A stretch of DNA of 32,000 nt from Occultella gossypii (GCF_019947135.1 NZ_JAGSHT010000004.1:3-32002); one strand, 5' to 3'; positions 21 through 26,704 are shown, counted from the stretch's first letter. Translations and numbers: made by a program. Notes: generated from the letters alone by a model not told the origin.

Positions 21-31
21 GGGGGGGGGGG
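21..31. repeat. Homopolymeric G tract (11 G), preceded by C6 and G5 runs, at or just before the pglW start
   Basis: Read directly: positions 21-31 are all G. The last G is the first base of the GTG at 31. Frame 1 has no stop from position 1. Confidence 0.9.
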
Positions 32-5700: not shown

Positions 5701-6350
5701 GCGATGCCGCGCTTCTCGAGGCACTGCGCCTCCTGTCTGGCACTCAGGATGTGAATGTTGTTAAGGCGGTGACTGCGCTCCTCACGGACGAAGCCGTCCC
5801 GTACCTGGCGGCGCATCGGTTCAAGGAACCGGGCCTGGAGAAGTTCGCCGAGTGGCAGCGCGTATGGGATCTGCAACGCCAGGAGGATGCACCGAAGACG
5901 GCGGATGCGCCGAAGAGTGTGGACATCCCGGTGCCGCCGAAGTACGGGCAGGCGGACTTCCGGCACGTGAGCATCTGGAAGGCGCGCGGCAAGCTGGACG
6001 TGCCGAAGGAGCGCTTCATCTCCTATCCGAGTGTCTCCTTCCCCGATGACCCGACGCCGGTGCTCGGGTGGGCGGGTTGGGATCACCGTGACCAGGCCAT
6101 CGCGCTCGCCCGCCTGATTGGCGAGCAGCAGGCAGATGCCCCGAGCCGGACGCCTCTGGTCGCAGGACTGGTGGAGCTCGAACCGTGGCTGCACCAATGG
6201 CACGGTGAGATCGATCCGGCCTCCGGCGTAGTGCCGGCAGACACGATCACCACCATGATCGACAGTGAACTTGATGCTCTGGGCGCAACCCGAGACGATG
6301 TGGCCGCCTGGCGGCCAGAACCAGCTCGACGCGGACGCCGTCGGGCCTGA
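2718..6350 (+). CDS. pglX: BREX/Pgl N6-adenine DNA methyltransferase PglX (1210 aa)
   Basis: SAM-binding motif I VIDPTCGSGHFLLGAF (nt ~3456-3503). Catalytic motif IV VVGNPPY (NPPY at nt 3855-3866). Size and long C-terminal extension are typical of PglX, and it sits between pglW and pglY. Confidence 0.92.
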   Translation: MIDSKLLLADLKKQLVLLTTDLRARAEEPGLEWAAELRAQHSAAVRRGRTAFTWSVWRDGRVDQAAVAWLVACAFVRFGEDNGLLDGAADSSGRAVAVPWLAGPTDGPLGDRLARASENETVFYRGTPTANARDWLQEAFAVLASLPAGRLLVDRAHNPVWKAPISAEAAGHLLSFWRRHDDDGALVHDFTDTSLDTRFLGDLYQDLSEHAKKTYALLQTPVFVEEFILDRTLQPAMLEFGLEGLKVIDPTCGSGHFLLGAFARLDAAWQQEAPGMESRDRVQTALDSIHGVDLNPFAIAIARFRLTVAALKAAGETSLVGAPDFDYHLAIGDSLLAAQGHQDTLNVHGDEEDVFTYASEDVAEYQDILEQGRYHVVVGNPPYITVKDKALNERYRKAYPGSTKGKYALSAPFMELFFRLARRAGPAGGAGFVGQITSNSFMKREFGSKVIENLLAGNDLDNPVDLSEVIDTSGAYIPGHGTPTVILVGRRRRAVGDTVRAVLGVRGEPGQPVDPAKGLVWTEVVEHLDSAGFDGIYVTVTDLDRAVLAVHPWSLSGGGAKAVLQLVDNDTRGRVGDHVARIGFFGIMGAEDAFMTTASDVNRLGDVGSHRNLVIGDKVRDFAVQSANPTFFPYDREHVLKALSRYPAMEHRLWPLRSELGNRATFAKGTYFSEGRPWYEWHQLPKDVDVHSWSITFAFVSTHNHFVLDRGGKVFKQSAPVIKLPADATEDEYLDLLGVLNSSTACFWLKQVSHDKGNGGYGGGIADQEWERFFEFTGTKLQEFPLPPLLPRERARLLDRLAQDLNEVSPASSVPAALAAADADLAHAVEEARGRWASLRRRLFFEQEELDWEVYRLYGLIDEDLTYAGGGIDHNELGDRAFEVTLARAVAAGVEETAWFDRHGSTPITELPAEWPQDYRDLVQRRLDLIASDKQIGLLERPEYKRRWQTPGWDVQLKAALETAVLDRLERPELWSDPAGVTTRTVGQLAELVSGDAALLEALRLLSGTQDVNVVKAVTALLTDEAVPYLAAHRFKEPGLEKFAEWQRVWDLQRQEDAPKTADAPKSVDIPVPPKYGQADFRHVSIWKARGKLDVPKERFISYPSVSFPDDPTPVLGWAGWDHRDQAIALARLIGEQQADAPSRTPLVAGLVELEPWLHQWHGEIDPASGVVPADTITTMIDSELDALGATRDDVAAWRPEPARRGRRRA

Positions 6351-6368
6351 TCAGCGGAGAAGCAACAG

Positions 6369-9300
6369 ATGAGTACAGACATCCTCGACACCCCGCTCCG
6401 CGATGTCATCAATGTCCCGGAGGTCGTCACCGCCGGCGACTTCGTGCTGCAGCTCCAGAACGGCGTCGCGGACGCAGAGGGCACACTCGGCCACTACGTG
6501 GTCACCGAGGGCGTCGCCGAAGCGATGGATGAGGCCCTGGACCTCGTCGAGAAGACCGTGCGAAGCGGCACCAGTGCCGGCGCCTTTGTGCACGGTTCGT
6601 TCGGCTCCGGAAAGTCGCACTTCATGGCGGTGCTCCACCTCATCCTGGCGGGCAACGTGCACGCTCGGAGCCTGCCCGGTCTGCAGCAGAGTGTTGCAGG
6701 TCATCACGGCGTGCTCGGCAAGCAGTTCCTCGCCATCGACTATCACCTGCTCGGCAAACCAAACCTCGAGTCCGCAATCTTCGACGGCTACCTGAATACG
6801 GTCCGCGACCGTCACCCTGGCGCACCCCTGCCGTTGCTGCACCGATCCGACAACCTCCTGAACGACGCCGTCACGCAGCGTCGTCAGTACGGGGACGACG
6901 CGTTCTTCGCGGCGCTGAATGGCGCCGCCGCTGCGCAGAGTGCCTCGATGGGTGACCTTGGCAACCTGGGGAACCTCGGCGGATCGCTCAGCGCTGAGAC
7001 CGGCTGGACCGCCGCGCGATTCGAGGATGCGCTCACCCAGCCGGTTGGCGGGACCGAGCGGGAACTGCTTGCCCAGCAACTCGTCGGGACGATGTTCGCC
7101 GGCTACACGGCATCGGGGGAGTGGCTCGACATCGCCGCCGGGCTCAAGGTGATGACCACGCACGCGCGCACCCTCGGCTATGACGCGATCGTGCTCTTCC
7201 TCGATGAACTGGTGCTCTGGCTGGGTCAGCACCTCTCCGACACCGCGTTCATCCAGGAGGAGACCTCCAAGGTCGCCAAACTCGTCGAATCAGAGATGGG
7301 CGCGCACGCCCTCCCGATGATCTCCTTTGTGGCCCGGCAGCGTGAGCTCAAGGACTTCCTCGGCAACACCGCAGACGGCGCTGAGATGGTGGCCGTGGGA
7401 CAGTCCTTCCAATGGTGGGAGGACCGGTTCGACGCAATCACGCTCAAGGCTGCGGATCTGCCGCAGATCGTCCACCAACGGCTCCTGCAACCACGAGATG
7501 ACGCCGGTGCGGCCGCGATCAAGGCGGCAGTCCAGCGTGTGAAGGCGGACAGCAGAGCCTGGTCCCACCTCCTCACCGACGAGGCGCTCTCCTCGGAATC
7601 GGACTTCGCGCTCGTCTACCCGTTCTCGCCCGCGCTTGTGGATGCCATGGTGGCGCTCTCCTCGCTCATGCAGCGGGAGCGAACCGCGCTCAAGATCATG
7701 AGCGAACTGCTCTCGAACGGTCGCGACTACCTTCGCGTGCGCGACGTGATCGGCGTTGGAGAACTCTTCGACGTCATCGTGCTCAGCCAGTCGAAGCCGT
7801 TGACGAAGGAGATGCAGACGCGGTTCGCCGTGGCGGAGAACTTCTACGCCACCAAGCTGCGCCCGTACCTGCTCGACAAGTACGGGTTGGACCAGGCGCA
7901 AGCGGATGCGTCCCCACGCCACTCACCGTTCCGCACGGAGGATCGGCTCGCCAAGACGTTGCTCATCTCCTACATCGCGCCGGGCACACCATCACTGAGC
8001 AATCTCACCGCGGGCAAACTTGCTGCTCTCAACTTCGGAACCGTCACCTCGCTGATCCCAGGGCAGGAAGCAGCACAGGTGACCACCTGGGCACGGGAGT
8101 GGGCGCGAAACTTCGGGGACGTCGTCGTTGGCACGGAGACCAACCCACTCATCAGCCTTCAGCTCTCCGGTGTGGACTACGAGTCCGTCATCGACCGGGT
8201 GCAGACCGAGGACCATCCGAGCAACAGGCGCGCCCTGGTCAAGTCATTGCTGGCCGAGGAACTGGAGCTCGTCGAGTCGCAGAACATGGTTTCCGATCAG
8301 ACGCTCGGTTTCGTGTGGCGTGGGAGCCGGCGCCTTGTGGACGTACTGTTCGGCAACGTACGTGAACGCCCCACGATGCCCACGGACCAGCTCCGGGCAG
8401 CTCCCGGTCGGTGGAAGGTGATCATCGACTATCCGTTCGATGAGCCGGGTCACTTCCCGTCCGACGATCTGCTCCGGATCAACCAGGAACGCGAGGCCGG
8501 GCTCGAGACCAATGCGATCGTCTGGCTGCCACACTTCCTGGCATCCACCCGAATGCAGGACGTTGGGCGGCTCGTGGTCCTTGAGCACCTCGCGAAGGCT
8601 CGGCAGTTCGACGCGAACGCCTCCCACCTCGCCCCCGCCGATCGCGAGCCGGCGCGCCAGGCACTGGAGAACCAGCGCCGCGCATTGCGAGAACAACTGG
8701 TCGCCACACTCCGTCAGGCGTACGGGATCAGTACACCGAAGGATGACGTTGACACCGGGGCGATCAAGGCCCAGGAGATCTTCACGACGCTGCGGCCAGG
8801 ACTCACGTTCCGGCCACCGGTGGCCGCGACGCTGCGCGACGGTCTGGTCAAGGTGCTTGATCAGGCACTCGGCGACGAGTACCCGGATCACCCACAGTTC
8901 CAGCCCGCTGACAGCGAGGTGCGCCGCGCCGAGATCCGTCACGTCCTGGACACTGTGCGCGAGACGATCGCCGCAGGTGGGCGGCTCGACGGGATCGATC
9001 GTGCCCGCGCGGCGGAGCTTTGGCGCGTCGCTGAACCTCTTGGGCTGGGCACTCCTCGCGAGAACGTCTACGCCCTGAGCGCCACGACGTTCCGTTGGCA
9101 GCCCGACTTCACGAAGGCAGTCACCGAGGCCGGTCGCGGTGGCGACGTGACCGTCGCCGACCTTCGGGCACGACTGGCAGGCACCGGCATCACAACGGAC
9201 CTCCAAGACCTCCTTGTGCTCTCCTGGGCCGGGCTCGCGGACCGAGAGATCCTGCGCGGGGGAGTGCCCGCCGGCGAGCCTGGGATCGGGGGACTCACGC

Positions 9301-10046
9301 CGGACATGACGCTGCGCCAGCCCGTCCTGCCTGACGACGAATCCTGGGAACGGGCCCAGCTGCGTGCCCAAGGTCTGTTCGGTATCGCGCGAGAGGTCAA
9401 CCTGACCTCGGCTGCGTTACACCGCTTCGGTGAGGCCCTACGCCGCCAATTCACTGGCTTCGTTGCTTCCGCACAGGGACTTGAGCGGGCACTCCACGAC
9501 CACCGAGACTCGCTGGCACTCGACGACACGAGTCCGCGTGTGGTCACCGCACGGGCTTCGAGGGAACTCGTCGATTCGCTGCGAGGCGCGAAGGACGACG
9601 TTGAACTGGTCCGTGTGCTTGCCGGTGCCAAGTTCACCACCGAACCCGCGGTGATCGGCCGGTCGCTGGCCACAGCCGCGGACGTGACCCGAGCACTGGG
9701 TCAGGCCCGGTGGCAGATTCTGCAGCGCGTCGAGTCGATGGACGGCGGGAAGCAGGTCCTCGCGGACCTGCGAATGGCCGCCGCCACGAACGAGTCTTCG
9801 GCCGGGCTGCAATCTGCCCTAGCCCACGCTCAGCGGCGTGCGGATGAGTTGATCATTGTTGTTCCGCCAAGCGTGGTCCCGCCACGGCTGCCCCAGCACC
9901 CGCCGGAAGGGGTGGACTCGATCCTTCTCGACATCGACGCGAGCGGCGATGTCGGTCGCTTACTGACGTCACTCACCCCGGAACTTCGGAACTTCGTCGC
10001 GGCCAACCCGGGCAAGCGGGTGCGTGTCAGCTGGAGGCTGGAGTGA
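6369..10046 (+). CDS. pglY: BREX type 2 P-loop ATPase PglY (1225 aa)
   Basis: Walker A GSFGSGKSH (nt 6594-6620). Large ATPase in the canonical position after pglX. GGAGA Shine-Dalgarno 8 nt upstream of the ATG. The stop overlaps the pglZ GTG (GTGA 10043-10046). Confidence 0.85.
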   Translation: MSTDILDTPLRDVINVPEVVTAGDFVLQLQNGVADAEGTLGHYVVTEGVAEAMDEALDLVEKTVRSGTSAGAFVHGSFGSGKSHFMAVLHLILAGNVHARSLPGLQQSVAGHHGVLGKQFLAIDYHLLGKPNLESAIFDGYLNTVRDRHPGAPLPLLHRSDNLLNDAVTQRRQYGDDAFFAALNGAAAAQSASMGDLGNLGNLGGSLSAETGWTAARFEDALTQPVGGTERELLAQQLVGTMFAGYTASGEWLDIAAGLKVMTTHARTLGYDAIVLFLDELVLWLGQHLSDTAFIQEETSKVAKLVESEMGAHALPMISFVARQRELKDFLGNTADGAEMVAVGQSFQWWEDRFDAITLKAADLPQIVHQRLLQPRDDAGAAAIKAAVQRVKADSRAWSHLLTDEALSSESDFALVYPFSPALVDAMVALSSLMQRERTALKIMSELLSNGRDYLRVRDVIGVGELFDVIVLSQSKPLTKEMQTRFAVAENFYATKLRPYLLDKYGLDQAQADASPRHSPFRTEDRLAKTLLISYIAPGTPSLSNLTAGKLAALNFGTVTSLIPGQEAAQVTTWAREWARNFGDVVVGTETNPLISLQLSGVDYESVIDRVQTEDHPSNRRALVKSLLAEELELVESQNMVSDQTLGFVWRGSRRLVDVLFGNVRERPTMPTDQLRAAPGRWKVIIDYPFDEPGHFPSDDLLRINQEREAGLETNAIVWLPHFLASTRMQDVGRLVVLEHLAKARQFDANASHLAPADREPARQALENQRRALREQLVATLRQAYGISTPKDDVDTGAIKAQEIFTTLRPGLTFRPPVAATLRDGLVKVLDQALGDEYPDHPQFQPADSEVRRAEIRHVLDTVRETIAAGGRLDGIDRARAAELWRVAEPLGLGTPRENVYALSATTFRWQPDFTKAVTEAGRGGDVTVADLRARLAGTGITTDLQDLLVLSWAGLADREILRGGVPAGEPGIGGLTPDMTLRQPVLPDDESWERAQLRAQGLFGIAREVNLTSAALHRFGEALRRQFTGFVASAQGLERALHDHRDSLALDDTSPRVVTARASRELVDSLRGAKDDVELVRVLAGAKFTTEPAVIGRSLATAADVTRALGQARWQILQRVESMDGGKQVLADLRMAAATNESSAGLQSALAHAQRRADELIIVVPPSVVPPRLPQHPPEGVDSILLDIDASGDVGRLLTSLTPELRNFVAANPGKRVRVSWRLE

Positions 10047-12736
10047 GCGCGCCCGCCACCAGCACCGTCCCGCTGGCGTCCGCGGGCTTGGTCACCGAAC
10101 GGGCGCGGTCCCTCGTGTCGCGGGGCAGCGCCCGAATGCTCCTGCTGCGCTCGGAGCCGCGTTGGGACGGGCCTCCTTCGATCGCTGTCGACGGCACCAC
10201 GGTGCAGATCCGGCCGGGTCGTTCCCAGCTAGCGGTGCTCACGGACTATACGGATCTCCCCGACGACGAGTACCTGGTGGTCCTGACCGACCGGAACGAA
10301 CAGGACCTCGGCAGTGCTGTGATGCTGCGGGCCGCCGGGCAGACCATCGAGCGCCCGGATGACTGGAGCGCAGTCGCGAGCATGGTGGGCGCACATACGA
10401 TCGACCCCGCGCTTCGGAAGCAGGGCCAATGGGCCGCTGGCGCACTGCTGGAGCACCGGCCACGCTCGGGGTGGCCACAGGTCACCACCGGTGTGCTCAC
10501 CGCAGATGCCGCCTTCGGCAATCTGCTGGCTGAGCTGCTGGGTGAGCTGCTGCCAGCCCGTTGGGATGCCTCGCGGCTGACCGAGGTGCTGCACGGTGCC
10601 TCGGCCCGGGCAGTTTGGGCCGCGACGGACGAGGACCTGCGGAAGCACCTGACCCGCTGGGCAGGCGACGCACTCGGTCCGCAGACCGTGTTTGTGCTCG
10701 CCGCTGCGGCCAGCACTCAAGTCTCAGTGGTGGCGATCGGCCTCGCAATGGATGTGCTGTGGCCGGCGCAGCCCCCGGCCCAGATCGAAGCAGATCGGAT
10801 CAGCGCACGCACGCGGATCGAACGCTACGTGGGCGGGCGGCCCGTGGAGAGTCTTCACGCGCGCGCCTTGGCCCTGGATGCCCGCGACACGCTCGAGCGC
10901 ATGCTCGACGCGGATGATCCCGACCACGCGAACGTGCTCCGCCAGGCGGAGGCGCTGCTCGGTGATCTCGGCTGGCCCGACGGCGCCCTCCTGTCCTCGG
11001 TGCTGCCCGCAGGCAGGTCGGCGCGCAGCGAAGTCCTCGCGCAGGCGATTCAGGGCTTCCTCGCCGGCCGCGGCACAGATGCCGTCGAGGAAGGGCTGCG
11101 CGATGTACTCGCGCACCGGCTCTCCCGGCACGAGGGACGCGAGGTCGAGGCGGCACGGATGGCCACCCGGCTGGTGCGCTGGCTTGAGAGTGAACCCGCG
11201 GACACCAGCGCCACCCTCGGCGACAGCCTGCACCTGCAGGTCGACGACGGCGGCTGGGCGGATCGGGCGCTCGCCTCCATCTGGACCGGCAGCGCATTGG
11301 CACCGGTGGCGCACGCCTACCGGCGGCTGGCGGAGCGGGTCCAGGCGATCCGAGCCAAGAGGGACTTCACCGCAGCGCAACAACTGGCTGCGGTGACCGC
11401 GACGGACGAGCCGACCCCCGCCGTCGTCCTCCTCGAAAACCTCCTCAAGGAGGTGGTGCACCCCCTGACCAAGGCAACCCGCGTGCTGCTCATCGTGCTG
11501 GACGGGATGAGCACCCGAGTGGCGACCGAGATCGCCCAGGGCGCCATGGAAGCGGGGTGGACCGAGCTGATCCCCGCTGCGTCGTCCACCCGTGCCGCGG
11601 GGCTGGCGGTTCTGCCCACGATGACCACGTTCTCCAGGACGTCGCTGCTCAGCGGCGAGCTCCGTGCCGGGACACAAGCGACCGAGAAGTCCCGGTTCCC
11701 CAAGGTGATCGAGGGACCTATATTCCACAAGGATGACCTCCGGCCCGCCGGTGGAGACCTCGTGGCGCAGGTGGTCGGTACCGCGATCGATGATCGCGCC
11801 ACCACGGTGGTGGGCGTGGTGCTGAACACGATCGACGATTCGCTCGCCAAGGATGACCCCGACGGCACCCGCTGGAACCTCGACCGGGTCCAGCACCTTC
11901 GTGCGCTACTCAATCGCGCCACCCTCGCAGGCCGAACGGTGATCCTGACCGCCGACCATGGGCACGTCGTGGAGCGGGGCGGTGAATATCGGGCGACTGC
12001 GGGTGCGGACACGCGGTGGAGACCGGTGAGTACTGGCGCCGCGGCAACCGATGAGATCGAGGTACGCGGCCGCCGGGTACTCGCAGCGGGCGGCGAAGCA
12101 GTGCTGGCCGTAACCGTAGGCCTGCGCTACGGCGCCAAGGCGGCCGGCTATCACGGGGGCGGGAGCCTCGCCGAGATCACGGTGCCGATCATTGTGCTGG
12201 ACCGCAGCAATAGGCCCCAGATCGGCGGATGGAAGATCGCACCCTCGCAGACCCCGAGCTGGTGGAACGAGCCGGCGGTGAAGCACCGCTACGAGTCGGT
12301 GGTCGAGGAGCGGACGGACAAGACGCGACGGCGCCGGCCAAGGGAGGAGGCACCAGGGCAGGGCAGCTTCGACCTGATCCTGGCCCAGCCGCTACCCGTG
12401 GACGGCACCGCGGCTCTCTCCTCTGTGGTGGATCAACTGCTCGACTCCGACGTATACGCGCGGCAGCGCAAGCGCGCCGGCCGTGGCGCTCTTGGCGATG
12501 ACGTGGTCCGCACGCTGCTCACCACGCTGGCAGATCGGGGCGGTCGAGCACACCGGGAGACCCTTGCCGGGCTGGTCGGGTCGAGCCTTCCCGCCGTGGA
12601 GTCAACACTCGCGGCGCTGCGCCGGTTGCTGAACGTGGAGGGCTACGCCGTGCTCTCTGACGACGCCGATGGCGTCACGGTGGTTCTTGACGAGGCGCTC
12701 CTTCGCGATCAGTTCGAGCTCGGCGGCCAACGGTGA
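10043..12736 (+). CDS. pglZ: BREX alkaline-phosphatase-superfamily protein PglZ (897 aa)
   Basis: PglZ/alkaline phosphatase-type metal-ligand motifs: LLIVLDGMS (D at nt 11501-11503) and ILTADHGH (nt ~11941-11964). GTGA overlaps at both ends. Confidence 0.88.
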   Translation: MSAPATSTVPLASAGLVTERARSLVSRGSARMLLLRSEPRWDGPPSIAVDGTTVQIRPGRSQLAVLTDYTDLPDDEYLVVLTDRNEQDLGSAVMLRAAGQTIERPDDWSAVASMVGAHTIDPALRKQGQWAAGALLEHRPRSGWPQVTTGVLTADAAFGNLLAELLGELLPARWDASRLTEVLHGASARAVWAATDEDLRKHLTRWAGDALGPQTVFVLAAAASTQVSVVAIGLAMDVLWPAQPPAQIEADRISARTRIERYVGGRPVESLHARALALDARDTLERMLDADDPDHANVLRQAEALLGDLGWPDGALLSSVLPAGRSARSEVLAQAIQGFLAGRGTDAVEEGLRDVLAHRLSRHEGREVEAARMATRLVRWLESEPADTSATLGDSLHLQVDDGGWADRALASIWTGSALAPVAHAYRRLAERVQAIRAKRDFTAAQQLAAVTATDEPTPAVVLLENLLKEVVHPLTKATRVLLIVLDGMSTRVATEIAQGAMEAGWTELIPAASSTRAAGLAVLPTMTTFSRTSLLSGELRAGTQATEKSRFPKVIEGPIFHKDDLRPAGGDLVAQVVGTAIDDRATTVVGVVLNTIDDSLAKDDPDGTRWNLDRVQHLRALLNRATLAGRTVILTADHGHVVERGGEYRATAGADTRWRPVSTGAAATDEIEVRGRRVLAAGGEAVLAVTVGLRYGAKAAGYHGGGSLAEITVPIIVLDRSNRPQIGGWKIAPSQTPSWWNEPAVKHRYESVVEERTDKTRRRRPREEAPGQGSFDLILAQPLPVDGTAALSSVVDQLLDSDVYARQRKRAGRGALGDDVVRTLLTTLADRGGRAHRETLAGLVGSSLPAVESTLAALRRLLNVEGYAVLSDDADGVTVVLDEALLRDQFELGGQR

Positions 12737-14076
12737 ACGTCTCTCCACGGCGCCGTCGGGACATCATCGACGCGGTGCGCCGCGGCACCGTGCCACAGCG
12801 GGGCCTGGACCTGATGGCGGTGCGGTTGGACCGGTTCGAGGTCACCGTGGACGAGGAACTCGAATCCGTGGCCGGCGGCGGCGCGCAGATGAAGGCGATC
12901 CGCGGTGAGTACGGCTCAGGCAAGACGTTCTTCGCGCGTTGGCTGACCGAGCGTGCGAAGGATCGCGGATTCGCGACGGCGGAGATTCAGATCTCCGAGA
13001 CGGAGACACCGCTGCATCGGCTGGAGACGGTGTACCGGCGGATCGTCGAGAGCCTGACCACCGCAGAGGCCGCACCTTCCGCGTTGCGGGAAGTGGTGGA
13101 CGGTTGGTTCCACATCCTGCGCACCGACGTCATCGAATCGGGTGCTCCCGCGAGCGATGAGACGTCCGTGCAGAGCGGCGTGGAAGCGCTGCTGGAGACG
13201 CGCCTCGCCGCTGTCAGCAAGACCGCGCCCTCGTTCGCGACCGCGCTGCGGGGCTATCGCGTGGCGATGATCGCCGGCGATGTGGCCCAAGCAGAGGGCT
13301 TGCTGGCTTGGCTGGGAGGGCAGCCGAACGTGGCCGCCTCCGTGCGGCGAGGAGCTGGGCTACGCGGAGAGTTGGACCACTTCGGCGCGCTCGGCTTCCT
13401 GCAAGGGCTGCTGACGGTGCTGCGTGACTCGGACTACGCCGGGTTGGTGGTGGTGTTGGACGAGGTGGAGACGCTGCAACGGGTGCGTTCCGACGTGCGG
13501 GAGAAGTCCCTGAATGCGCTGCGCCAATTGCTGGACGAGATCGACTCGGGACGGTTTCCGGGCTTGTACCTGCTGATCACCGGCACGCCCGCCTTCTACG
13601 ACGGGCAACAGGGCATGCGGCGCCTGCCGCCACTCGCCCAGCGGCTGGCCACGGACTTCACCGCCGACGCGCGGTTCGACAATCCTCGCGCACCCCAGAT
13701 CCGGCTTACGGGGTTCACGCAGGACTCGCTCCTGGAACTCGGGTCGCGGGTGCGTGACCTCTATGCGAGCGGCGCCGACGCCGGCGGGCGGGTGCTGGAC
13801 CTCGTGGATGACGGCTATGTTGCGACACTGGCGGATGCCGTCGCCGGAGAGCTCGGCGGCAAGGTGGGCGTGGCACCGCGGTTGTTCCTGCGCAAGCTCG
13901 TGGACGTGATGGACCGTGTGGACCAGTTCGAGGAGTTCCGGCCGCGGCGTGACTATGCGCTGACCGTCGATCCGGGAGAACTGCACGAGACTGAGACCGA
14001 GGCGCGCAATCTCGGCGCCGTCCGCGGTCCGCGGGCCGTGGCGGCCAGTGTGGATGACGTCGACCTGGGCCTATGA
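12733..14076 (+). CDS. brxD: BREX type 2 ATPase BrxD (DUF2791-like AAA/P-loop protein, 447 aa)
   Basis: Walker A GEYGSGKTF (nt 12904-12930) and Walker B VVVLDEVE. Position after pglZ. ATGA overlap with brxHI at 14073-14076. Confidence 0.8.
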   Translation: MNVSPRRRRDIIDAVRRGTVPQRGLDLMAVRLDRFEVTVDEELESVAGGGAQMKAIRGEYGSGKTFFARWLTERAKDRGFATAEIQISETETPLHRLETVYRRIVESLTTAEAAPSALREVVDGWFHILRTDVIESGAPASDETSVQSGVEALLETRLAAVSKTAPSFATALRGYRVAMIAGDVAQAEGLLAWLGGQPNVAASVRRGAGLRGELDHFGALGFLQGLLTVLRDSDYAGLVVVLDEVETLQRVRSDVREKSLNALRQLLDEIDSGRFPGLYLLITGTPAFYDGQQGMRRLPPLAQRLATDFTADARFDNPRAPQIRLTGFTQDSLLELGSRVRDLYASGADAGGRVLDLVDDGYVATLADAVAGELGGKVGVAPRLFLRKLVDVMDRVDQFEEFRPRRDYALTVDPGELHETETEARNLGAVRGPRAVAASVDDVDLGL

Positions 14077-16190
14077 GCGTTGAGAGCGGGCTGAACGCCG
14101 CCGTCGAGTACCACGTGGTGAACTCGCTCGGCTGGAGTTCCCTGCGGCCGCTGCAGCATGCAGCCGTGGCGCCCGTTCGGGCAGGCAAGGACTGCCTGCT
14201 GATCGCGCCGACGGCTGGCGGCAAGACGGAGGCGGCCCTCTTCCCGCTCCTGTCAGAGATGGTCGAGGAGGACTGGCATGGGCTGTCCGTCCTATACATC
14301 ACGCCGCTGCGGGCACTGCTCAACAACCTGTACCCGCGGCTCGAGCAGTACGCAGGGTGGCTCGGTCGGCGGGTCGCCCTGTGGCACGGCGACGTGGGTG
14401 ACTCGGAGCGCCGTCGAATCCTGGGGGAGCGGCCCGACATGCTCCTGACCACGCCGGAGTCGTTGGAGTCCATGCTGGTGTCGCGGCGCGTTGATCACCG
14501 GGCGCTGTTCGCCGGCGTGCGGGCCGTGGTGATCGACGAGGTGCATGCGTTTGCGGGTGCCGACCGCGGCTGGCACCTGCTCGCAGTACTCGAACGGATC
14601 CAGCGACTTGCTGGGCGCCGGATCCAGCGCGTCGGGCTCTCGGCGACGGTTGGAAATCCGGAGTCGATCCTCACGTGGCTGAGGGGGAGCAACGTTTCCG
14701 CGGGGACCGGAGCCGAGGTAGTGACGGGGGAGGACCACCGGACTGTTACATCACCGGTCGATGTGACACTGGACTACGTCGGGTCGCTGGCGAACGCGGC
14801 TGAGGTGATCTCACGCCTCTACCGCGGCGAGAAGAGATTGGTATTCTGTGAGTCGCGGCGCAGGGCTGAGGAACTCGCGTTTGAGTTGCGCGCCCGGAAC
14901 GTGACGACGTTCGTCTCTCACTCGTCTCTGTCGCGTGACGAGCGGCAGGTGAGCGAACGAGCGTTCGCGGAGGCGCGCGACTGCGTCATCGTCGCCACAT
15001 CCACGCTCGAACTGGGTGTGGACATCGGGGACCTGGACCGGATGATCCAGATCGACGCGCCTCGGTCGGTGGCGTCGTTCCTGCAGCGGTTGGGTAGGAC
15101 CGGGCGGCGCGCCGGGACGCAGCGGAACGCGCTCTTCCTCGCCGTGGAAAGCGAGGGGTTCCTCCGCGCTGCCGCGCTCCTACTGCTGTGGGGCCAAGGA
15201 CTCGTGGAGCCCGTGGTGCCTCCGCCTTCGCCGCGACACTTGGCGGCTCAGCAGCTGCTGGCACTGGCGTTGCAGGAAGGCAGGTTCGGGGCCACGACTT
15301 GGCGGTCCTGGTGGGACGGACTTGGGTTCATGGACGAGGCCGCACCGATCCTCGAGTATCTGCGTTCCGAGCAGTTTCTGGTGGAGGACCAGGGCATGGT
15401 GTTCATCGGCCCGCGCGCGGAGAAGGAGTTCGGGCGCCGGTACTTCATGGACCTGCTGGCCTCATTCTCCGCTGACCTCGAACTGCGGGTGGTGGCCGGT
15501 GTGCGTGAGATCGGCATGGTCTCGCCGTTGGCGCTCCAGAGCTGGAAGTCTGGCGGACCGGCGAAGAGGCTGCTGCTAGCAGGTTGGGCGTGGCGGGTGG
15601 AGTCTGTGGACTGGGAGCGGCGAGAGGTCGTCGTGAGCGATGCACCCGATAAGGGCAAGGTGCGCTGGCCAAGCGAAGCCGTCGCCGAGTCCTTCGAACT
15701 GGCACGCGCGCAGCGCGACGTCCTCCTCGGCAGAACTCCCGACGTCGTCTTGTCTCGGCGAGCAGTGGAGCGGCTCGCGCGCATCCGAGATGAGATGGCG
15801 GATGTGGTCGACCCGGATGGTCTCGTGGTGCTCGAGGCGCCAGCGGGACGGGAGTTCTGGACCTGGGCGGGCCTGCGGGCCAACGAGACACTCATCGCCG
15901 CGCTCGGTGCAGGGGATGGTGCGGACAACCATCGATTCACACTGGACGAGGCAACGGGGCTGTCCGATCTGCGTGCTGCACCCGTGGACGTGGCGTTGCC
16001 GGTCATCAGCCCGCAGGCTGTCGACGGCCTGAAGTTCTCGGCCGCGCTCGCTCCGGAGCTAGCGACTGCAACGCTTGCCGAGCGTTTCGTCGACCGGAGC
16101 GGGGCGATGGAGACAATCCAGTCGCCGATTGTGGCCACGTCGATATCATCTCGTCGTGGACAACTGCGCCGATTGGGCGAGGAGCTCTGA
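14073..16190 (+). CDS. brxHI: BREX type 2 Lhr-like DEAD/DEAH-box helicase BrxHI (705 aa)
   Basis: SF2 motif I APTAGGKTEAA (nt 14205-14237), motif II DEVH (nt 14535-14546), motif III SAT, and motif VI QRLGRTGRR. It is the last gene of the canonical type 2 order. Confidence 0.85.
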   Translation: MSVESGLNAAVEYHVVNSLGWSSLRPLQHAAVAPVRAGKDCLLIAPTAGGKTEAALFPLLSEMVEEDWHGLSVLYITPLRALLNNLYPRLEQYAGWLGRRVALWHGDVGDSERRRILGERPDMLLTTPESLESMLVSRRVDHRALFAGVRAVVIDEVHAFAGADRGWHLLAVLERIQRLAGRRIQRVGLSATVGNPESILTWLRGSNVSAGTGAEVVTGEDHRTVTSPVDVTLDYVGSLANAAEVISRLYRGEKRLVFCESRRRAEELAFELRARNVTTFVSHSSLSRDERQVSERAFAEARDCVIVATSTLELGVDIGDLDRMIQIDAPRSVASFLQRLGRTGRRAGTQRNALFLAVESEGFLRAAALLLLWGQGLVEPVVPPPSPRHLAAQQLLALALQEGRFGATTWRSWWDGLGFMDEAAPILEYLRSEQFLVEDQGMVFIGPRAEKEFGRRYFMDLLASFSADLELRVVAGVREIGMVSPLALQSWKSGGPAKRLLLAGWAWRVESVDWERREVVVSDAPDKGKVRWPSEAVAESFELARAQRDVLLGRTPDVVLSRRAVERLARIRDEMADVVDPDGLVVLEAPAGREFWTWAGLRANETLIAALGAGDGADNHRFTLDEATGLSDLRAAPVDVALPVISPQAVDGLKFSAALAPELATATLAERFVDRSGAMETIQSPIVATSISSRRGQLRRLGEEL

Positions 16191-16893
16191 TGCGACCCAG
16201 GATGCGGACAGCGAGGGTCATGGCGGAGGTCTTGGCGGGTGGAAGGGCGACCACGAATTCCGTCCGCGGTCCCAACGCCCGTCCCAAGTGCTAGTCGGCA
16301 AAGAGGGGTGAGGGCGTGCGCGGTCGGGCTCATGGTCCGCTTGCTCGACACCGCCGCCGTTCTGGTGTCGAAGTCATCCTCTACCAGCAATGTCCTTAAA
16401 CTCCAGAACCGGCGCAGGCGCGAGCCGGTCGTCCTTGTAGTCGCTGTCCGCAACCACTGCGTAGCAGTGCTGGTCACCCCGCCAGATGGGTCGAGAACAC
16501 CCCAACTGCCGAGCAGGCCACCCGAGCCGGAATCGCCACGCACGTACCCGTAGATTAAATGGCTGTCAAACACAGGGTGCCGGTTGAGGTGGGGCGGCTC
16601 GCGTTGGCAGTATCGAACTGCGGTTCCTAGTGATCTGCCCGGCGGATCATTGCTGCTGATCGATCTGTGGCAGCGCCTGACTCTCTGATGCGATCGGCCG
16701 GGACGTCCTCATTGAGGTCGCTGGGGCCGCGATCACGGGCCGGCTTCGATTCTGAGCCAATCGACCGTGCACCCCCTTCGGAGCTCCGCAGAACCTGCGG
16801 GGCGTGCTCGTCACGGTCCTCCAGGATGCCCAATGTGCACCGCCCGATAGGCGTCGCTAACTGCTGCTAGCTGGGCCGTGGCATGCTGTCGAT

Positions 16894-17724
16894 GTGCGTC
16901 ACCCAAACATGGACCTGCGGACGGTGTCCGTCCGCGCTCGTCAGATCGCTGTTCCCTTAGAGCACGCGATGAGCCTTGCGATCGACTCGGAGGTGGATGC
17001 CGTCATAGCAACTATGTTCGAGCACCAGTTCGACGCAGCGCCGGTGATGACAGAGGGGGTCCCGGTAGGGGTCTTCGTTCCGGCTTCGGAAGCGGCGCGG
17101 GGACCGGGCGCCGTGGTGGGCGAGCTCATGCTTCCGCTGGCCGCTCCGTTGATCGTGTCTGGCGAGGCAACCCTGGACCATTTGATGGAACGCATGGCTC
17201 GCGAGCCATTTCTGTTTGTGCTCGGGGAGTCAGGGATTACGAGCTTCGTCACCCCGGCGGACCTCGGGTCGGTGCCAGTGCGGACCCATTTCTATCTCCG
17301 GTTGGCACACCTCGAGACTGTCCTCGGGAACTACTTGCGCGTCCGCTACCCAGACCAGTCGCAGATCGTAGCCCTCCTGTCATCGCCGAGACAAGAGTCG
17401 CATGCCAAGATCGCCAATGAGCTGCGCGGAAGAGACACCTTCATTGATGATGTGTCGTGCTTGAGCGTACGGGACTTAGTGCAAGTCCTCGGTAAGGAAG
17501 ACTCCTACAGGAGGGCGACCAAGGAGGCAGGCGTAGGCTGGCGCCGCGCAATCAGCGGTCTCTCCGACTTCCGCAACGACATCATGCACCCGACCCGCAC
17601 GCTGGCGGGCGCGGGCGTCTCCCGTCCCGAGTACCTGCTGGAGCGGCAGCGACGGATCGATGCACTTATTCAGGCTACTCGATCCGTGGCCAATGAGCCC
17701 AGGGCTCTCGCGAGAGTAGATTGA
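16894..17724 (+). CDS. CBS-pair domain protein fused to a C-terminal HEPN-like (RNxxxH) putative RNase domain
   Basis: Two CBS-like repeats: ...DSEVDAVIATMFEHQFDAAPVMTEGVPVGVFV... and ...SGEATLDHLMERMAREPFLFVLGESGITSFVTPADL.... A helical C-terminal half carries FRNDIMH (R at nt 17572-17574, H at 17587-17589), which fits the HEPN Rx4-6H motif. The start is GTG 16894 or ATG 16909. Confidence 0.6.
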   Translation: MRHPNMDLRTVSVRARQIAVPLEHAMSLAIDSEVDAVIATMFEHQFDAAPVMTEGVPVGVFVPASEAARGPGAVVGELMLPLAAPLIVSGEATLDHLMERMAREPFLFVLGESGITSFVTPADLGSVPVRTHFYLRLAHLETVLGNYLRVRYPDQSQIVALLSSPRQESHAKIANELRGRDTFIDDVSCLSVRDLVQVLGKEDSYRRATKEAGVGWRRAISGLSDFRNDIMHPTRTLAGAGVSRPEYLLERQRRIDALIQATRSVANEPRALARVD

Positions 17725-17994
17725 CGGATCGAGGCTCAGGGGTCCCGCCAGCGGCATGAGTCTCAGTTCCATGCCGGGCCGAGTGCGGCAGAGGGCGTGC
17801 ATGTCATCCCCCAGTGCCGGTCAGTCCCGGGTAAGGGGCAACCCTGGAGAGACCAACAGCCGGCCGTGGTGCTCAACGACCCACGCCGCGCCGACATCCA
17901 CGCCTCGGTAGTCACACCCGCACCGTTCGTGCTGGGATGTTGGCTCGAACCCCGCCCTATCTTTGCAGCTACCCTTGTGGCATCGTATGGCGGT

Positions 17995-18135
17995 ATGCCG
18001 AAAGAACCCGCGGGGCTCCACTACTGTCCGGCTTGCGATAAGAACCAGCCGCATACCGAGCACTACAGCAATACGGCGCAAGGCAAGAAGCGCGAGGCGC
18101 TGATTTGTGACGTCTGCAACGCGTACAACGACTGA
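17995..18135 (+). CDS. Small (46 aa) zinc-ribbon protein
   Basis: MPKEPAGLHYCPACDKNQPHTEHYSNTAQGKKREALICDVCNAYND has CPAC and CDVC pairs 23 residues apart. Third-position GC is high in this frame. The ORF track gives 17797-18135, but that N-terminal extension looks non-coding. Confidence 0.45.
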   Translation: MPKEPAGLHYCPACDKNQPHTEHYSNTAQGKKREALICDVCNAYND

Positions 18136-18154
18136 AGGTTCTGGACACGGGCCA

Positions 18155-18697
18155 ATGAGTACCGAAGACGCCGGCCAGGAGGTGCCCGTCGGCGATTTCG
18201 GAGGCGTGCCGAACGCTTGGCTGCCCGACCTCGGCAAAATCGCCGTCTCGTCGGGGCGGATTGAATTCGCCGCTTACCAGATCGCCGTAGCCCTCGATTT
18301 GAAGCAGCCCCGCAACGGTAGGAGCCGCAACTTCAGTTCCCAGTGCGAGGACATCCGGCAGCGGCTGGAGGACCCGTGGCGTCCAGCCTGGTTGAGGGAT
18401 CCGACGTCGTGGAGCGAGGACGTCGCGGCCTGGACTATAGACGCCACGACGGCGATGAATCAACACCGCAACACCATCCTTCACCGGCCGTATTTTCACC
18501 AGCGTACAAATGACGACTGGCTGCTGAAGACGATGAGACGGCTAGATGACTTCAGTTCGACTGTTCCGGCTTCGCACCGGGAGATCGTGGACGCGGTGGA
18601 GCGCTTGAGGCCGATCGCGGGGCGCGGCATCGACCTGTGGATCGCAGGACTTCGAACCATGCCGCCGGAGGGACGTATCGATCTAGTGGAGGATTGA
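18155..18697 (+). CDS. Second HEPN-like (RNxxxH) protein, Abi-type
   Basis: ~180-aa helical protein with NQHRNTILH (R at nt 18467-18469, H at 18482-18484). ATG 18155 lies 19 nt after the zinc-ribbon stop. An alternative upstream ATG at 18107 would overlap that gene. Confidence 0.55.
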   Translation: MSTEDAGQEVPVGDFGGVPNAWLPDLGKIAVSSGRIEFAAYQIAVALDLKQPRNGRSRNFSSQCEDIRQRLEDPWRPAWLRDPTSWSEDVAAWTIDATTAMNQHRNTILHRPYFHQRTNDDWLLKTMRRLDDFSSTVPASHREIVDAVERLRPIAGRGIDLWIAGLRTMPPEGRIDLVED

Positions 18698-18698
18698 C

Positions 18699-19060
18699 GG
18701 CTCTACGCGGCTCGTCGTGAAGGCGCGCTCTGATGGATGCTCGCGCTACTGCTCGAGCGGCGCCGGCGACAAGGATACGGGCTAGGTGGTCGCGGGTGTT
18801 GTGGAAGCTGCGACCGGTTCGTTTGATGTTCTTGATAGTCGTGTTCGCCGCCTCAACGTTCACGTTCGTGGCCCCGGTGACGATGGGCACGTCGATGGCA
18901 TCCCACCAGGTGACGATGGTCTCGTGGAGGCGGTCGGTCTCGGGCATGTTGACGACCTGGAGTCCGCGTCATGGTGGGCGAAGTGACGTACGTACTTGAA
19001 GGACGTGTGCCGTCGAGAGGTGCCGGCCCAAGGATCGTCACGCTGACGAGCATCCTCGCT
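18699..19060 (-). mobile_element. Relic of an ISL3-family insertion sequence: terminal inverted repeat plus a frameshifted, 5'-truncated transposase C-terminus
   Basis: Minus-strand PETDRLHETIVTWWDAIDVPIVTGATNVNVEAANTTIKNIKRTGRSFHNTRDHLARIL matches the conserved ISL3 transposase C-terminus as I remember it (..TNG.TEA.N..IK..KR.G.GFRNF.NYR.R.LL). An upstream piece (..FKYVRHFAHHDAD..) is in a different frame, with a stop between the two. GGCTCT at 18699-18704 resembles the ISL3 IR terminus. Confidence 0.6.
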
Positions 19061-24842: not shown

Positions 24843-25424
24843 GCAGGTCACCAATCTTGGCTCCAGTTTGGAGGAAGCGGAAACGCCCATGCCTTTGGTC
24901 GCGGTCACGATCAAGCGTCGGTCGTGGCGCTCGGCAACCCAGCCGAGGACGCGTTCGTCGGGCTCGGTGTCACCGGTTAGCGGGTGACGGTTTAACGGCC
25001 GAAATGAACGTTCGGACGACCATCTCGTTGTGGACAATCGTGGAGTCAGCGAAAATCTCGTCGGGAGGAGGCGGCATGCGGGCGGCACGGTGATCACCAA
25101 GAGTGCCTCGTGGGCAGCTCTGGTAGCCGGCCCGGCGCACCGCGCCAGGCAAATGCATCGACCCGGACCGCGAATCAGCAGCGCACGCTCGACCAGCTCG
25201 ACGCCATCGGGACCAAGACCGCTGCCGAGTAGGTACAAGAAGTCATCGCCGAGGACGCCGCCTGTAGCCGTATGTCTGAGGGTCGGGCGAATGAACTACG
25301 ACGCGACGTGCGGGCACCGAGAGTCGGACCAGTCAGAGGGCGACCGTCGGCTGCCGCGGCCGGAATCAAGAAGTGCGGCCAATCTGGCTCACACTCTCGC
25401 GGCCTTCCGGTACGGTCACGTTCT

Positions 25425-25658: not shown

Positions 25659-26043
25659 GCGGACAGCCGCGAACGCTCCCGCAATGAGGGTGTTGTCGGG
25701 TAACGGCGCTCAGACACCGGCGGAGGGACCATTCCCGACCTCGATGCGATCGGCGACCAACTACTGGACTTCCACCGAGTTTTCGACCTGGTGCGCAGCC
25801 GACGTTGGAGGTCGCCCCGGAGCGTGCCGCATTGCGGCTGCGCCGAGTAGTCGCGGAGCTCAGGGACGCGATGGACCGGTCTGACCTCGTCGCAACCGGG
25901 GACGCGCCTACTGACATCACCTATAGGCGGTGTTAGTGCTGCGGTGACCTGGCATTGACCTCGAGGGCGTGGTGCGCGAGGTCCACCAGTCGAACATGAT
26001 CAAGTTTGACTCGCGGGGCGCAACCTTCTGCGGGTGGACGAGG

Positions 26044-26694: not shown

Positions 26695-26704
26695 GAGCTC
26701 CTAC

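What the first reader, a model, noticed from the sequence alone, without database searches (positions are those of the whole stretch)
16894..17724. CBS-pair sensor fused to a HEPN nuclease domain: possible adenosyl-ligand-gated RNase beside a SAM-dependent defence system
The N-terminal ~125 aa read as two CBS repeats. The C-terminal half carries the HEPN motif. CBS pairs are established binders of adenosyl ligands (AMP/ATP, SAM, c-di-AMP). A CBS-HEPN fusion would therefore be architecturally analogous to ligand-gated CARF-HEPN RNases. It sits next to BREX, whose PglX methyltransferase needs SAM, and phage SAM-degrading enzymes have been reported to counter BREX. One speculative model follows: the protein monitors SAM or adenylate status and fires when a phage disables BREX.
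Basis: inference. Interest (0 to 1): 0.7.

Follow-up and report, generated by a model that had tools for sequence, protein, structure and literature searches.

The report
Short CBS–HEPN defence nuclease beside BREX
The gene is real and encodes a nucleotide-sensor (CBS pair) fused to a predicted RNA-cutting HEPN domain, but it is a shorter, distant relative of the recently validated one-gene anti-phage system DS-11 and sits in many different defence islands, so it is not a dedicated partner of the neighbouring BREX system.

Summary
The ORF at 16894-17724 (+, 276 aa) is real and coding. Residues ~12-125 form a CBS pair, supported by an AF2 model (pLDDT 92), Foldseek hits to 148 solved structures, and CBS Pfam hits in 17 of 22 homologues. 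Residues 126-276 are all-helical and carry an R-N-x-x-x-H motif that is near-invariant in 123 diverse relatives (R 121/123, H 122/123). The architecture is not new. CBS-HEPN fusions were catalogued in 2013. DS-11, a one-protein CBS+HEPN system, was shown to stop phages, and its CBS (Y157A) and HEPN (R330A, H335A) mutants lose defence. The window family is homologous to DS-11 over the whole unit (hhalign 97.5%, E 8e-12). F46, R227 and H232 align with the mutated DS-11 residues. The window protein lacks DS-11's conserved N-terminal domain and scores 14 bits against the NCBIfam cut-off of 260, so it is a distinct short lineage, found so far in Actinomycetota, Chloroflexota and haloarchaea. In 34 loci no partner gene is conserved and BREX is adjacent only here. 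Neighbours elsewhere include DISARM-like genes, CBASS, McrBC, R-M systems and mobile elements. Four loci place the gene directly after type I hsdR. The ligand-gated RNase idea is supported by homology. The BREX/SAM-guard idea is not.

The parts
16894..17724 (+). CBS-pair-HEPN gene (276 aa including the GTG start; stop TGA 17722-17724). The true start is 16894 (GTG) or 16909 (ATG, M6), not the ATG at 16969 used in the NCBI 251-aa call.
   Evidence: ORF list; coding GC-frame pattern including codons 1-25; 100% match to an Occultella gossypii protein called from M26; residues 12-25 are conserved in homologues (consensus IRARxLAxPL) and well modelled.
16927..17103 (+). N-terminal lead strand plus CBS motif 1 (aa 12-70). 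It contains the F46-D47-x-A49-P50-V51 strand. F46 (nt 17029-17031) aligns with DS-11 Y157, whose alanine mutant loses defence.
   Evidence: AF2 secondary structure; PDB sequence hits 4esy and 2cu0; residue table with F 101 and Y 14 of 123 at this position; hhalign mapping to DS-11; DS-11 mutants.
17104..17268 (+). CBS motif 2 (aa 71-125). It ends in the ribose-binding-type motif G-h-h-T-x-x-D, here S117-F-V-T120-P-A-D123 (nt 17242-17262). The window protein has S where 118 of 123 relatives have G.
   Evidence: Pfam CBS stretch aa 75-124; conservation G 118/123, T 103/123, D 123/123; coordinates. Reading the motif as a ribose-binding site rests on my own knowledge of CBS domains.
17269..17721 (+). 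All-helical HEPN-type domain (aa 126-276). Helix 1 starts directly after D123 and carries R130 (122/123) and E141 (123/123). R149, D185 and D194 are also conserved.
   Evidence: AF2 model of the domain alone, pLDDT 92.8; conservation; profile match to the DS-11 HEPN region at 92.2%, E 5.9e-7; weak recurrent Pfam hit to HEPN_STY4199 in 4 of 39 members; HEPN proteins (HepT, Csm6, TM0613) appear among the non-significant top Foldseek hits.
17572..17589 (+). Rx4H catalytic motif R227-N-D-I-M-H232. It aligns with DS-11 R330 to H335.
   Evidence: Coordinates; conservation; alignment to DS-11; DS-11 R330A and H335A strains and loss of defence.
31..16190 (+). Context only, not part of the module: type 2 BREX/Pgl operon. 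PglW 31-2721 (cut by the window edge), PglX 2718-6350, PglY/BrxC 6369-10046, PglZ 10043-12736, BrxD 12733-14076, BrxHI 14073-16190.
   Evidence: PADLOC hits with E from 1e-197 to 0.
16191..16893 (.). Context: 703-nt spacer between the brxHI stop and the CBS-HEPN start. No convincing ORF, lower G+C.
   Evidence: Sequence; GC-frame analysis; no promoter or terminator consensus on the + strand here; composition.
18552..18947 (-). Context: C-terminal remnant of an ISL3-family transposase, consistent with the right edge of the acquired island. ABC-transporter genes follow from 19219.
   Evidence: Pfam DDE_Tnp_ISL3 positions 184-240 of 240, E 7.5e-6; SBP_bac_5 for 19219-20832.

Best explanation
The gene encodes a self-contained, single-protein defence nuclease of the CBS-HEPN kind. 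It is a short, distant relative of the validated anti-phage system DS-11. Shown here: an N-terminal CBS pair is joined directly to a C-terminal helical domain with an invariant Rx4H motif. The whole unit is homologous to DS-11. The residues matching DS-11's three loss-of-function sites are conserved (F46, R227, H232). The gene has no conserved partner and sits in variable defence islands and mobile elements. Inferred: the protein dimerises through its HEPN domains, as typical HEPN RNases do, and is held inactive. An adenine-containing ligand that appears or changes in level during infection binds the CBS pair, most likely at the CBS2 site, whose G-h-h-T-x-x-D motif ends one turn before HEPN helix 1. 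This rearranges the composite R/H site and switches on RNA cleavage, which causes growth arrest or abortive infection. In this genome it landed next to a type 2 BREX operon as a separate cargo gene of the same island, bounded by an IS remnant. It acts as an independent second layer and not as a BREX subunit.
Confidence: 0.65

Rival explanations
1. Guard or backup of the neighbouring methyltransferase-based system, broadened. The CBS pair reads SAM or a related adenosyl metabolite, or the protein is held latent by the adjacent restriction/BREX complex. It fires its HEPN RNase when a phage disables that system, for example with a SAM lyase or Ocr. This would work like the anticodon nuclease PrrC, which is silenced by the type Ic enzyme EcoprrI and released by T4 Stp.
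For: The gene follows a SAM-dependent BREX operon here. In four loci from at least three diverged branches it starts between 4 nt inside and 16 nt after type I hsdR (L013, L017, L021, L028), and in L008 it starts 28 nt after the last gene of an MmeI-type cluster. Some CBS pairs bind SAM; human CBS with SAM is among the structural hits. T3 SAM lyase defeats BREX (bioRxiv 10.1101/2023.02.27.530186). PrrC precedent (PMC1484252). A BREX survey proposes stand-alone HEPN RNases as backup effectors (PMC12839542).
Against: BREX is adjacent in 1 of 34 loci. No PglZ or BrxC appears among the top 25 Pfam families of 81 further neighbours. Most loci have other neighbours such as CBASS, PIN TA, McrBC or mobile elements. 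R-M genes are common in defence islands, so adjacency in about 5 of 34 loci has no tested excess over background. A 703-nt gap separates the gene from brxHI. DS-11 sits on mobile elements without R-M or BREX neighbours and was cloned alone. The BREX survey never mentions CBS.
Confidence: 0.13
2. Housekeeping or stress regulator and not an immune gene. It would be a nucleotide-sensing RNase that tunes RNA stability or enforces dormancy according to cellular energy or alarmone state, as Anantharaman et al. 2013 suggested for CBS-HEPN fusions, and it would sit in islands only because it is mobile.
For: The 2013 proposal. A haloarchaeal plasmid relative lies between sugar-transport and cobalamin genes. 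L007 borders arabinose genes. No phage-specific sensor domain is evident in this short form.
Against: Most informative contexts are defence genes or mobile elements. The distribution is patchy: the strict pattern-based scan of 185,579 species genomes confirmed only 3 loci. Local G+C is lower and an IS remnant is nearby. The homologous DS-11 protects against phages.
Confidence: 0.12
3. Non-catalytic or decayed copy. The helical domain is not an active nuclease, or this copy is impaired by the G117S change in the ligand motif, so the gene is a silent island passenger.
For: No significant structural match to solved HEPN nucleases. S117 replaces a 96%-conserved glycine. No recognisable promoter consensus upstream.
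Against: The ORF is intact and full length, and it keeps every other family-invariant residue (D47, P50, G59, D123, R130, E141, R149, D185, R227, H232). The coding GC-frame signal is preserved. Near-invariance of R and H across 123 relatives argues for catalysis. The promoter scan covers sigma-70 consensus only.
Confidence: 0.06

Closest known systems
DS-11 (WP_000257686.1; NCBIfam NF053863 'CBS domain-containing anti-phage protein'; DefensePredictor, Science 2026, PMC13092281)
   Same: One-protein system with the same order of CBS pair then C-terminal HEPN with an R-N-D-V/I-M-H motif. Homologous across the whole unit (97.5%, E 8.4e-12). The aromatic residue at the DS-11 Y157 position and the R and H at the 330 and 335 positions are conserved. 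No conserved partner gene. Located on islands or mobile elements.
   Different: About 20% identity, and pairwise BLASTP is not significant. 14 bits against the equivalog cut-off of 260. The window protein lacks DS-11's conserved N-terminal ~75-aa domain and ~45-aa linker (276 against 365 aa). Named members of the window family are from Actinomycetota, Chloroflexota and haloarchaea, whereas all source names listed for DS-11 are from Proteobacteria. F replaces Y at the tested CBS position. Four relatives lie directly after hsdR, which was not seen in the two DS-11 contexts examined.
CBS(+HD)-HEPN fusions catalogued by Anantharaman et al. 2013 (alr3009; Pelobacter propionicus gi 118580987; PMC3710099)
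   Same: The same domain combination and the same proposed logic, in which CBS senses a nucleotide derivative and controls a HEPN RNase.
   Different: Those examples were not retrieved or compared here. Some carry an extra HD domain. They were discussed as signalling or RNA-stability proteins, not as validated defence genes.
CARF-HEPN RNases of type III CRISPR (Csm6/Csx1)
   Same: Works alike in outline: a ligand-sensor domain gates a HEPN RNase. Csm6 HEPN domains are among the weak structural hits.
   Different: The sensor is a CBS pair, not a CARF fold. No cyclic-oligoadenylate synthase or CRISPR locus was found among the window ORFs scanned. This is an analogy only, not membership.
PrrC / RloC anticodon nucleases (restriction-linked RNases)
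   Same: A nucleotide-regulated N-terminal sensor with a C-terminal RNase placed in the HEPN superfamily in 2013. PrrC is genetically linked to a type I R-M locus (PMC1484252, PMC3458546), as are four relatives of the window gene.
   Different: The N-terminal domain in PrrC and RloC is an ABC-type NTPase, not a CBS pair. PrrC is always R-M-linked, whereas this family is R-M-linked only occasionally. No sequence similarity was tested.
Auxiliary/backup HEPN endoRNases around BREX loci (PMC12839542)
   Same: A stand-alone HEPN gene next to a BREX operon, proposed as a second-line effector.
   Different: That survey does not mention CBS-fused forms. This family is not BREX-specific.

Membership tests
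CBS pair (Bateman module, Pfam PF00571 x2) | Two tandem beta-alpha-beta-beta-alpha CBS motifs forming one module | tested here: met
   AF2 model with pLDDT 92 shows two such units in aa ~12-125. Foldseek against PDB gives 148 hits at E<=1e-3, and the 50 listed are all CBS-domain proteins, with target TM-scores up to 0.76.
CBS pair (Bateman module, Pfam PF00571 x2) | Pfam gathering score for PF00571 | tested here: inconclusive
   The window protein scores 21.1 bits against a cut-off of 24, with one stretch only. 17 of 22 homologues match at E<=0.1, best 9.4e-10.
CBS pair (Bateman module, Pfam PF00571 x2) | Ribose-phosphate-binding motif G-h-h-(T/S)-x-x-(D/N) (my own knowledge of CBS domains) | tested here: inconclusive
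   The CBS2 motif is near-invariant in the family (G 118, T 103, D 123 of 123), but the window protein reads S-F-V-T-P-A-D. The CBS1 equivalent is degenerate.
CBS pair (Bateman module, Pfam PF00571 x2) | Binding of an adenosyl ligand | not testable with these tools
   Needs ITC or DSF, or co-folding with ligands.
HEPN superfamily | Conserved Rx4-6H motif | tested here: met
   R227-N-D-I-M-H232. R is present in 121/123 and H in 122/123 relatives.
HEPN superfamily | All-alpha, four-helix-core fold matching solved HEPN domains | tested here: inconclusive
HEPN superfamily | Profile similarity to a recognised HEPN family | tested here: met
   The link is transitive. The C-terminal profile matches the DS-11 HEPN region at 92.2%, E 5.9e-7. 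That region is Swt1-like HEPN at 98% and SAV2148-like HEPN at 95.7% by the authors' HHpred. Direct Pfam evidence is weak only: HEPN_STY4199 in 4 of 39 members, best E 0.0018.
HEPN superfamily | Metal-independent RNase activity | not testable with these tools
   Needs biochemistry.
DS-11 (NCBIfam NF053863 equivalog) | Score at or above the curated cut-off (260 bits) | tested here: not met
   14.1 bits, E 0.019, CBS region only.
DS-11 (NCBIfam NF053863 equivalog) | Homology across both the CBS pair and HEPN | tested here: met
   hhalign family against family 97.5%, E 8.4e-12, window aa 14-262 against DS-11 aa 125-365. Family HMM 47.1 bits.
DS-11 (NCBIfam NF053863 equivalog) | Residues shown to be required for defence (Y157, R330, H335) | tested here: met
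   They align with F46 (F or Y in 115 of 123), R227 and H232. Mutant data.
DS-11 (NCBIfam NF053863 equivalog) | Conserved N-terminal domain (DS-11 aa ~1-75, invariant V27, R28, R38, R39 and others) plus linker | tested here: not met
   It is present and conserved in 20 DS-11 relatives. It is absent from the window protein, whose alignment to DS-11 begins at DS-11 residue ~123-125.
DS-11 (NCBIfam NF053863 equivalog) | Single-gene system without a conserved partner | tested here: met
   All-against-all clustering of neighbours in 34 loci found no family shared by more than 4 loci.
DS-11 (NCBIfam NF053863 equivalog) | Protection against phage | not testable with these tools
   Needs plaque assays.
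Type 2 BREX / Pgl component | Match to a BREX component model, or membership of the conserved six-gene set | tested here: not met
   No PADLOC hit for the target. The six canonical genes are all accounted for upstream. A 703-nt gap follows brxHI.
Type 2 BREX / Pgl component | Co-occurrence of homologues with BREX genes | tested here: not met
   tblastn with the window's Pgl and Brx proteins against 8 homologue loci gave only generic MTase and helicase similarity. No BREX family is among the top 25 Pfam families of 81 further neighbours.
PrrC-type restriction-linked anticodon nuclease | Obligatory linkage to a type I R-M locus | tested here: not met
   Only 4 of 34 loci have hsdR directly upstream.
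PrrC-type restriction-linked anticodon nuclease | ABC-ATPase-like N-terminal regulatory domain | tested here: not met
   The N-terminal domain is a CBS pair.

The most novel reading that the evidence does not exclude
The short CBS-HEPN lineage is a restriction-linked guard. It is repeatedly captured at the 3' end of type I R-M, MmeI-type and, here, BREX operons. It is either kept latent by the neighbouring methyltransferase complex or reads the SAM/adenosyl pool, and it unleashes RNA cleavage when a phage neutralises that first line. This would be a CBS-based counterpart of PrrC/EcoprrI and would make 'anti-anti-restriction' sensing of SAM depletion testable.
Probability: 0.12. Interest if true: 0.7.

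Novelty: new variant of a known kind. Interest (0 to 1): 0.3.

Why it matters
The kind is already known. CBS-HEPN fusions were described in 2013, and one of them (DS-11) was validated as a phage-defence gene in 2025-2026, so this is not a discovery of a new system. This analysis adds three things. First, it links a sizeable unannotated family to DS-11 over the full sensor-effector unit: 187 representatives at E<=1e-30, labelled only 'CBS domain-containing' or 'hypothetical', and missed by the PADLOC models, the DS-11 NCBIfam cut-off and every Pfam HEPN model. Second, it shows that the DS-11 N-terminal domain is dispensable for the conserved core. That narrows where the sensing and catalytic logic must reside, to the CBS2 site abutting HEPN helix 1, and it offers a smaller protein for biochemical and structural work on the still-unknown ligand. 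Third, it documents a recurrent position directly after hsdR, which may be worth a proper enrichment test. For annotation, current pipelines truncate the N-terminus of this gene and leave its HEPN domain unrecognised.

Tried and rejected
Searches that returned nothing useful:
- PADLOC and PHROGs gave no hit for the target.
- A PDB sequence-profile search with the C-terminal domain gave only noise, E >= 0.5.
- Foldseek with the C-terminal model gave nothing significant against PDB or BFVD.
- Pairwise BLASTP of the window protein against DS-11 was not significant. Homology appears only with profiles.
- The broad 56-sequence alignment was too diverse for the pattern-based locus scan.
- The genome-contig scan confirmed only 3 loci because its patterns are strict.
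- There were no Rfam families and no tRNAs in the window.
- The promoter and terminator scan was uninformative around the gene.
- No relatives were found in phage genomes.

Readings I considered and rejected:
- The overlapping 180-aa ORF at 16878-17420 as the real gene. Its GC-frame pattern is wrong.
- The downstream ORF196 (RNxxxH-like motif) as a conserved partner or second HEPN subunit. It has no counterpart in any homologue locus, and its own relatives lie elsewhere.
- The target as a seventh BREX gene.
- A toxin-antitoxin pair with a conserved small neighbour.

Full report
**1. What is in the sequence**

An ORF of 276 codons lies at 16894-17724 on the + strand, with a GTG start and a TGA stop. 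Its position-specific G+C is 0.68/0.46/0.74, which matches the flanking brx genes. The first 25 codons show the same pattern. The overlapping 180-aa ORF in another frame does not (0.75/0.70/0.43).

The product is 100% identical to an *Occultella gossypii* protein that NCBI calls from M26, giving 251 aa. Residues 12-25 (SVRARQIAVPLEHA) match the family consensus IRARxLAxPL and are modelled with high confidence. In two homologue loci the similarity also extends upstream of the called start. The annotated start is therefore too short, and 16894 (GTG) or 16909 (ATG) is the real one.

**2. The surroundings**

A complete type 2 BREX/Pgl operon lies upstream. PglW is cut by the window edge, and PglX, PglY/BrxC, PglZ, BrxD and BrxHI follow. 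It ends 703 nt before the target.

The 16-19 kb stretch has lower G+C than its flanks. It contains two further small coding-like ORFs and ends in an ISL3 transposase remnant at 18552-18947 (-). Oligopeptide ABC-transporter genes then begin. The window has no Rfam family and no tRNA.

**3. The N-terminal half is a CBS pair**

The single sequence gives only one sub-threshold Pfam CBS stretch, at 21.1 bits against a cut-off of 24, plus weak PDB sequence hits. The family-level and structural evidence is much stronger:
- 17 of 22 homologues hit PF00571, down to E 9.4e-10.
- The AF2 model (pLDDT 92, pTM 0.86) shows two beta-alpha-beta-beta-alpha units in residues ~12-125.
- Foldseek against PDB returns 148 hits at E<=1e-3. 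All 50 listed are CBS-domain proteins, including ATP-bound CorC/CNNM, AMP-bound CBSX2, SAM-bound human CBS and c-di-AMP-bound DarB.

Across 123 diverse relatives, CBS2 ends in G117-h-h-T120-x-x-D123 (G 118, T 103, D 123 of 123). From my own knowledge of CBS domains I read this as the canonical ribose-binding motif. The equivalent position in CBS1 is degenerate. The window protein has S at position 117, which is a minority state.

**4. The C-terminal half is a HEPN-type domain**

It is all-helical, with pLDDT 92.8 when modelled alone. It carries R227-N-D-I-M-H232. R227, M231, H232 and R235 are invariant in 22 homologues. An R[N/D]xxxH motif occurs in 145 of 169 collected sequences; fragments are a likely reason for the rest. 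In the diverse set, R is present in 121/123 and H in 122/123.

Helix 1 begins immediately after D123 and carries R130 (122/123) and E141 (123/123).

**5. Size of the family**

The word-indexed search found 24 clusters. The exhaustive profile search found 2,761 representatives at E<=1e-3 and 187 at E<=1e-30, and most of the 150 best-scoring representatives listed are 260-280 aa.

Named members come from *Occultella*, *Ornithinimicrobium*, *Tessaracoccus*, *Brachybacterium* and *Cryobacterium*, plus a Chloroflexia MAG. Haloarchaeal megaplasmids carry distant relatives. One of these (WP_123079152.1) keeps the full pattern TRADLN...YLEE...RNDVAH. No phage genome carries a relative.

**6. What is already known**

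Anantharaman et al. 2013 listed HEPN domains fused to CBS, sometimes with an HD domain as well. They proposed that nucleotide sensing by CBS regulates RNA stability (PMC3710099).

[quoted passage not shown] Defence was lost in the CBS mutant Y157A and in the HEPN mutants R330A and H335A. AF3 predicted a dimer binding ATP. [quoted passage not shown]

I took the DS-11 sequence (WP_000257686.1, 365 aa) from their Table S8 and compared it with the window protein and its family:

| Comparison | Result |
|---|---|
| Pairwise BLASTP | not significant |
| Window family profile vs DS-11 sequence (hhalign) | 95.1%, E 3.2e-8 |
| 123-sequence family HMM vs DS-11 | 47.1 bits, E 1.9e-7 at a library size of 1.8e9, covering DS-11 123-362 |
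| Window family vs a 20-sequence DS-11 family alignment | 97.5%, E 8.4e-12 over 221 columns (window 14-262, DS-11 125-365) |
| HEPN-only profile vs DS-11 family | 92.2%, E 5.9e-7 |

In these alignments DS-11 Y157, R330 and H335 fall on F46 (F or Y in 115 of 123), R227 and H232.

The authors' HHpred table assigns DS-11's C-terminal region to Swt1-like HEPN at 98% and to SAV2148-like HEPN at 95.7%.

**7. How the window protein differs from DS-11**

- DS-11 relatives form a large family: 3,643 clusters, ~355-370 aa, and every source name listed is from Proteobacteria.
- DS-11 relatives have a conserved N-terminal domain of about 75 aa followed by a variable linker. The window family lacks both.
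- The window protein scores 14 bits against the DS-11 NCBIfam equivalog model, whose cut-off is 260.

It therefore belongs to the same kind and the same superfamily, but it is not a DS-11 equivalog.

**8. Genomic context and the BREX hypothesis**

I examined 34 loci that carry a relative. BREX is adjacent only in the window:
- The window's own Pgl and Brx proteins find only generic methyltransferase and helicase similarity in eight homologue loci.
- No BREX family is among the top 25 Pfam families matched by 81 further neighbours.

The neighbours differ from locus to locus:

| Neighbours | Locus |
|---|---|
| DISARM-like cluster | L001 |
| Dcm-type R-M with Vsr | L004 |
| PIN toxin-antitoxin pair | L005 |
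| CBASS (SMODS + S_4TM) | L006 |
| Group II intron RT, ISL3 transposase, integrase | L007 |
| MmeI-type enzyme, helicase, T5orf172 | L008 |
| Type I R-M, GmrSD, SIR2 | L013 |
| SMODS/SLATT and a type III R-M | L015 |
| Integrative element | L016 |
| HsdR and a McrB-like gene | L017 |
| TrwC relaxase and an AbiEii-type ATPase | L025 |

All-against-all clustering of neighbours found no partner gene shared by more than four loci. DS-11 itself lies next to an integrase remnant or at the end of a P2-like prophage. The gene therefore behaves as a self-contained cargo gene of defence islands.

There is one recurring arrangement. In L013, L017, L021 and L028, which come from at least three diverged branches, the gene starts between 4 nt inside and 16 nt after type I hsdR. 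I could not test this against a background rate.

**9. Mechanism**

Shown here: the architecture, the conservation pattern, homology to a validated system including its functional residues, the absence of a partner gene, and island context.

Inferred: HEPN-mediated dimerisation; an adenine-type ligand binding at the CBS2 site, which abuts HEPN helix 1; ligand-controlled RNA cleavage; and growth arrest or abortive infection. The ligand is unknown even for DS-11.

T3 SAM lyase does defeat BREX. A restriction-linked nuclease guard, PrrC, does exist. HEPN RNases have been proposed as backup effectors around BREX. However, the distribution of this family does not support a BREX-specific role. A broader restriction-linked guard role remains possible at about 0.12.

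**10. Verdict**

The feature is a short-form variant of a known and recently validated kind. Interest is modest at 0.3. Its value lies in annotating an unrecognised branch, in providing a minimal CBS-HEPN core for the search for the ligand, and in the hsdR-adjacent pattern.

Noticed in passing
window 16894-16968: The public annotation (251 aa, start at M26, nt 16969) cuts off 25 codons that are conserved in homologues and form part of the first CBS motif. Gene calls in L003 and L004 are truncated in the same way.
   Followed up: yes
window 18107-18697 (+): ORF196 has a coding-like GC-frame pattern and is annotated as a 180-aa hypothetical protein. It belongs to a tiny family of 3 clusters with an invariant HRN[T/A]ILHRPYF block, which is an RNxxxH, HEPN-like motif. 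It has no Pfam, PADLOC or PHROGs hit. It is not linked to CBS-HEPN genes elsewhere; one relative sits near NERD and DUF1016 nuclease genes (L010).
   Followed up: partly
window 17797-18135 (+): A coding-like ORF whose C-terminal ~45 residues read like a zinc ribbon (YCPACD...CDVCN). It overlaps the start of ORF196 by 29 nt, so the two may form a small two-gene unit. No Pfam hit.
   Followed up: no
window 18552-18947 (-): C-terminal remnant of an ISL3-family transposase (Pfam positions 184-240 of 240). It overlaps the 3' end of ORF196 and marks the island edge before the ABC-transporter genes.
   Followed up: partly
window 16191-16893: A 703-nt spacer with lower G+C lies between brxHI and the CBS-HEPN gene. 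It has no convincing ORF. A short stretch around 16300-16400 has a coding-like frame pattern and could be a gene remnant.
   Followed up: no
window 17242-17244 (S117): The window protein has serine where 118 of 123 relatives have the glycine of the putative ribose-binding G-h-h-T-x-x-D motif. This could alter ligand affinity.
   Followed up: no
window 25000-30000: A second lower-G+C patch (0.61-0.64) contains a DUF7002 protein (26044-26694, -), an OGG-like putative DNA glycosylase (27426-28187, -), unassigned ORFs of 193 and 415 aa, and a 742-aa helicase-C protein (29751-31979, -). It may be another acquired or defence-type cluster.
   Followed up: no
L013 10001-10804; L017 3277-4089; L021 344-1156; L028 7992-8498: In four metagenomic loci the CBS-HEPN gene begins between 4 nt inside and 16 nt after a type I hsdR gene, which is operon-like. 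In L017 a McrB-like gene follows it. This resembles the known 'restriction-linked ORFs' such as prrC.
   Followed up: partly
L012 7953-8807 (Halarchaeum plasmid NZ_CP054709.1): Haloarchaeal megaplasmids carry distant CBS-HEPN relatives that keep the RNDVAH motif. This one lies between sugar-transport and cobalamin-biosynthesis genes, not in an obvious defence island.
   Followed up: partly
window 31-2721: PglW is cut by the window edge: the ORF matches positions 502-1396 of the 1403-position PADLOC PglW model. The BREX operon therefore extends beyond the left end of the window.
   Followed up: no
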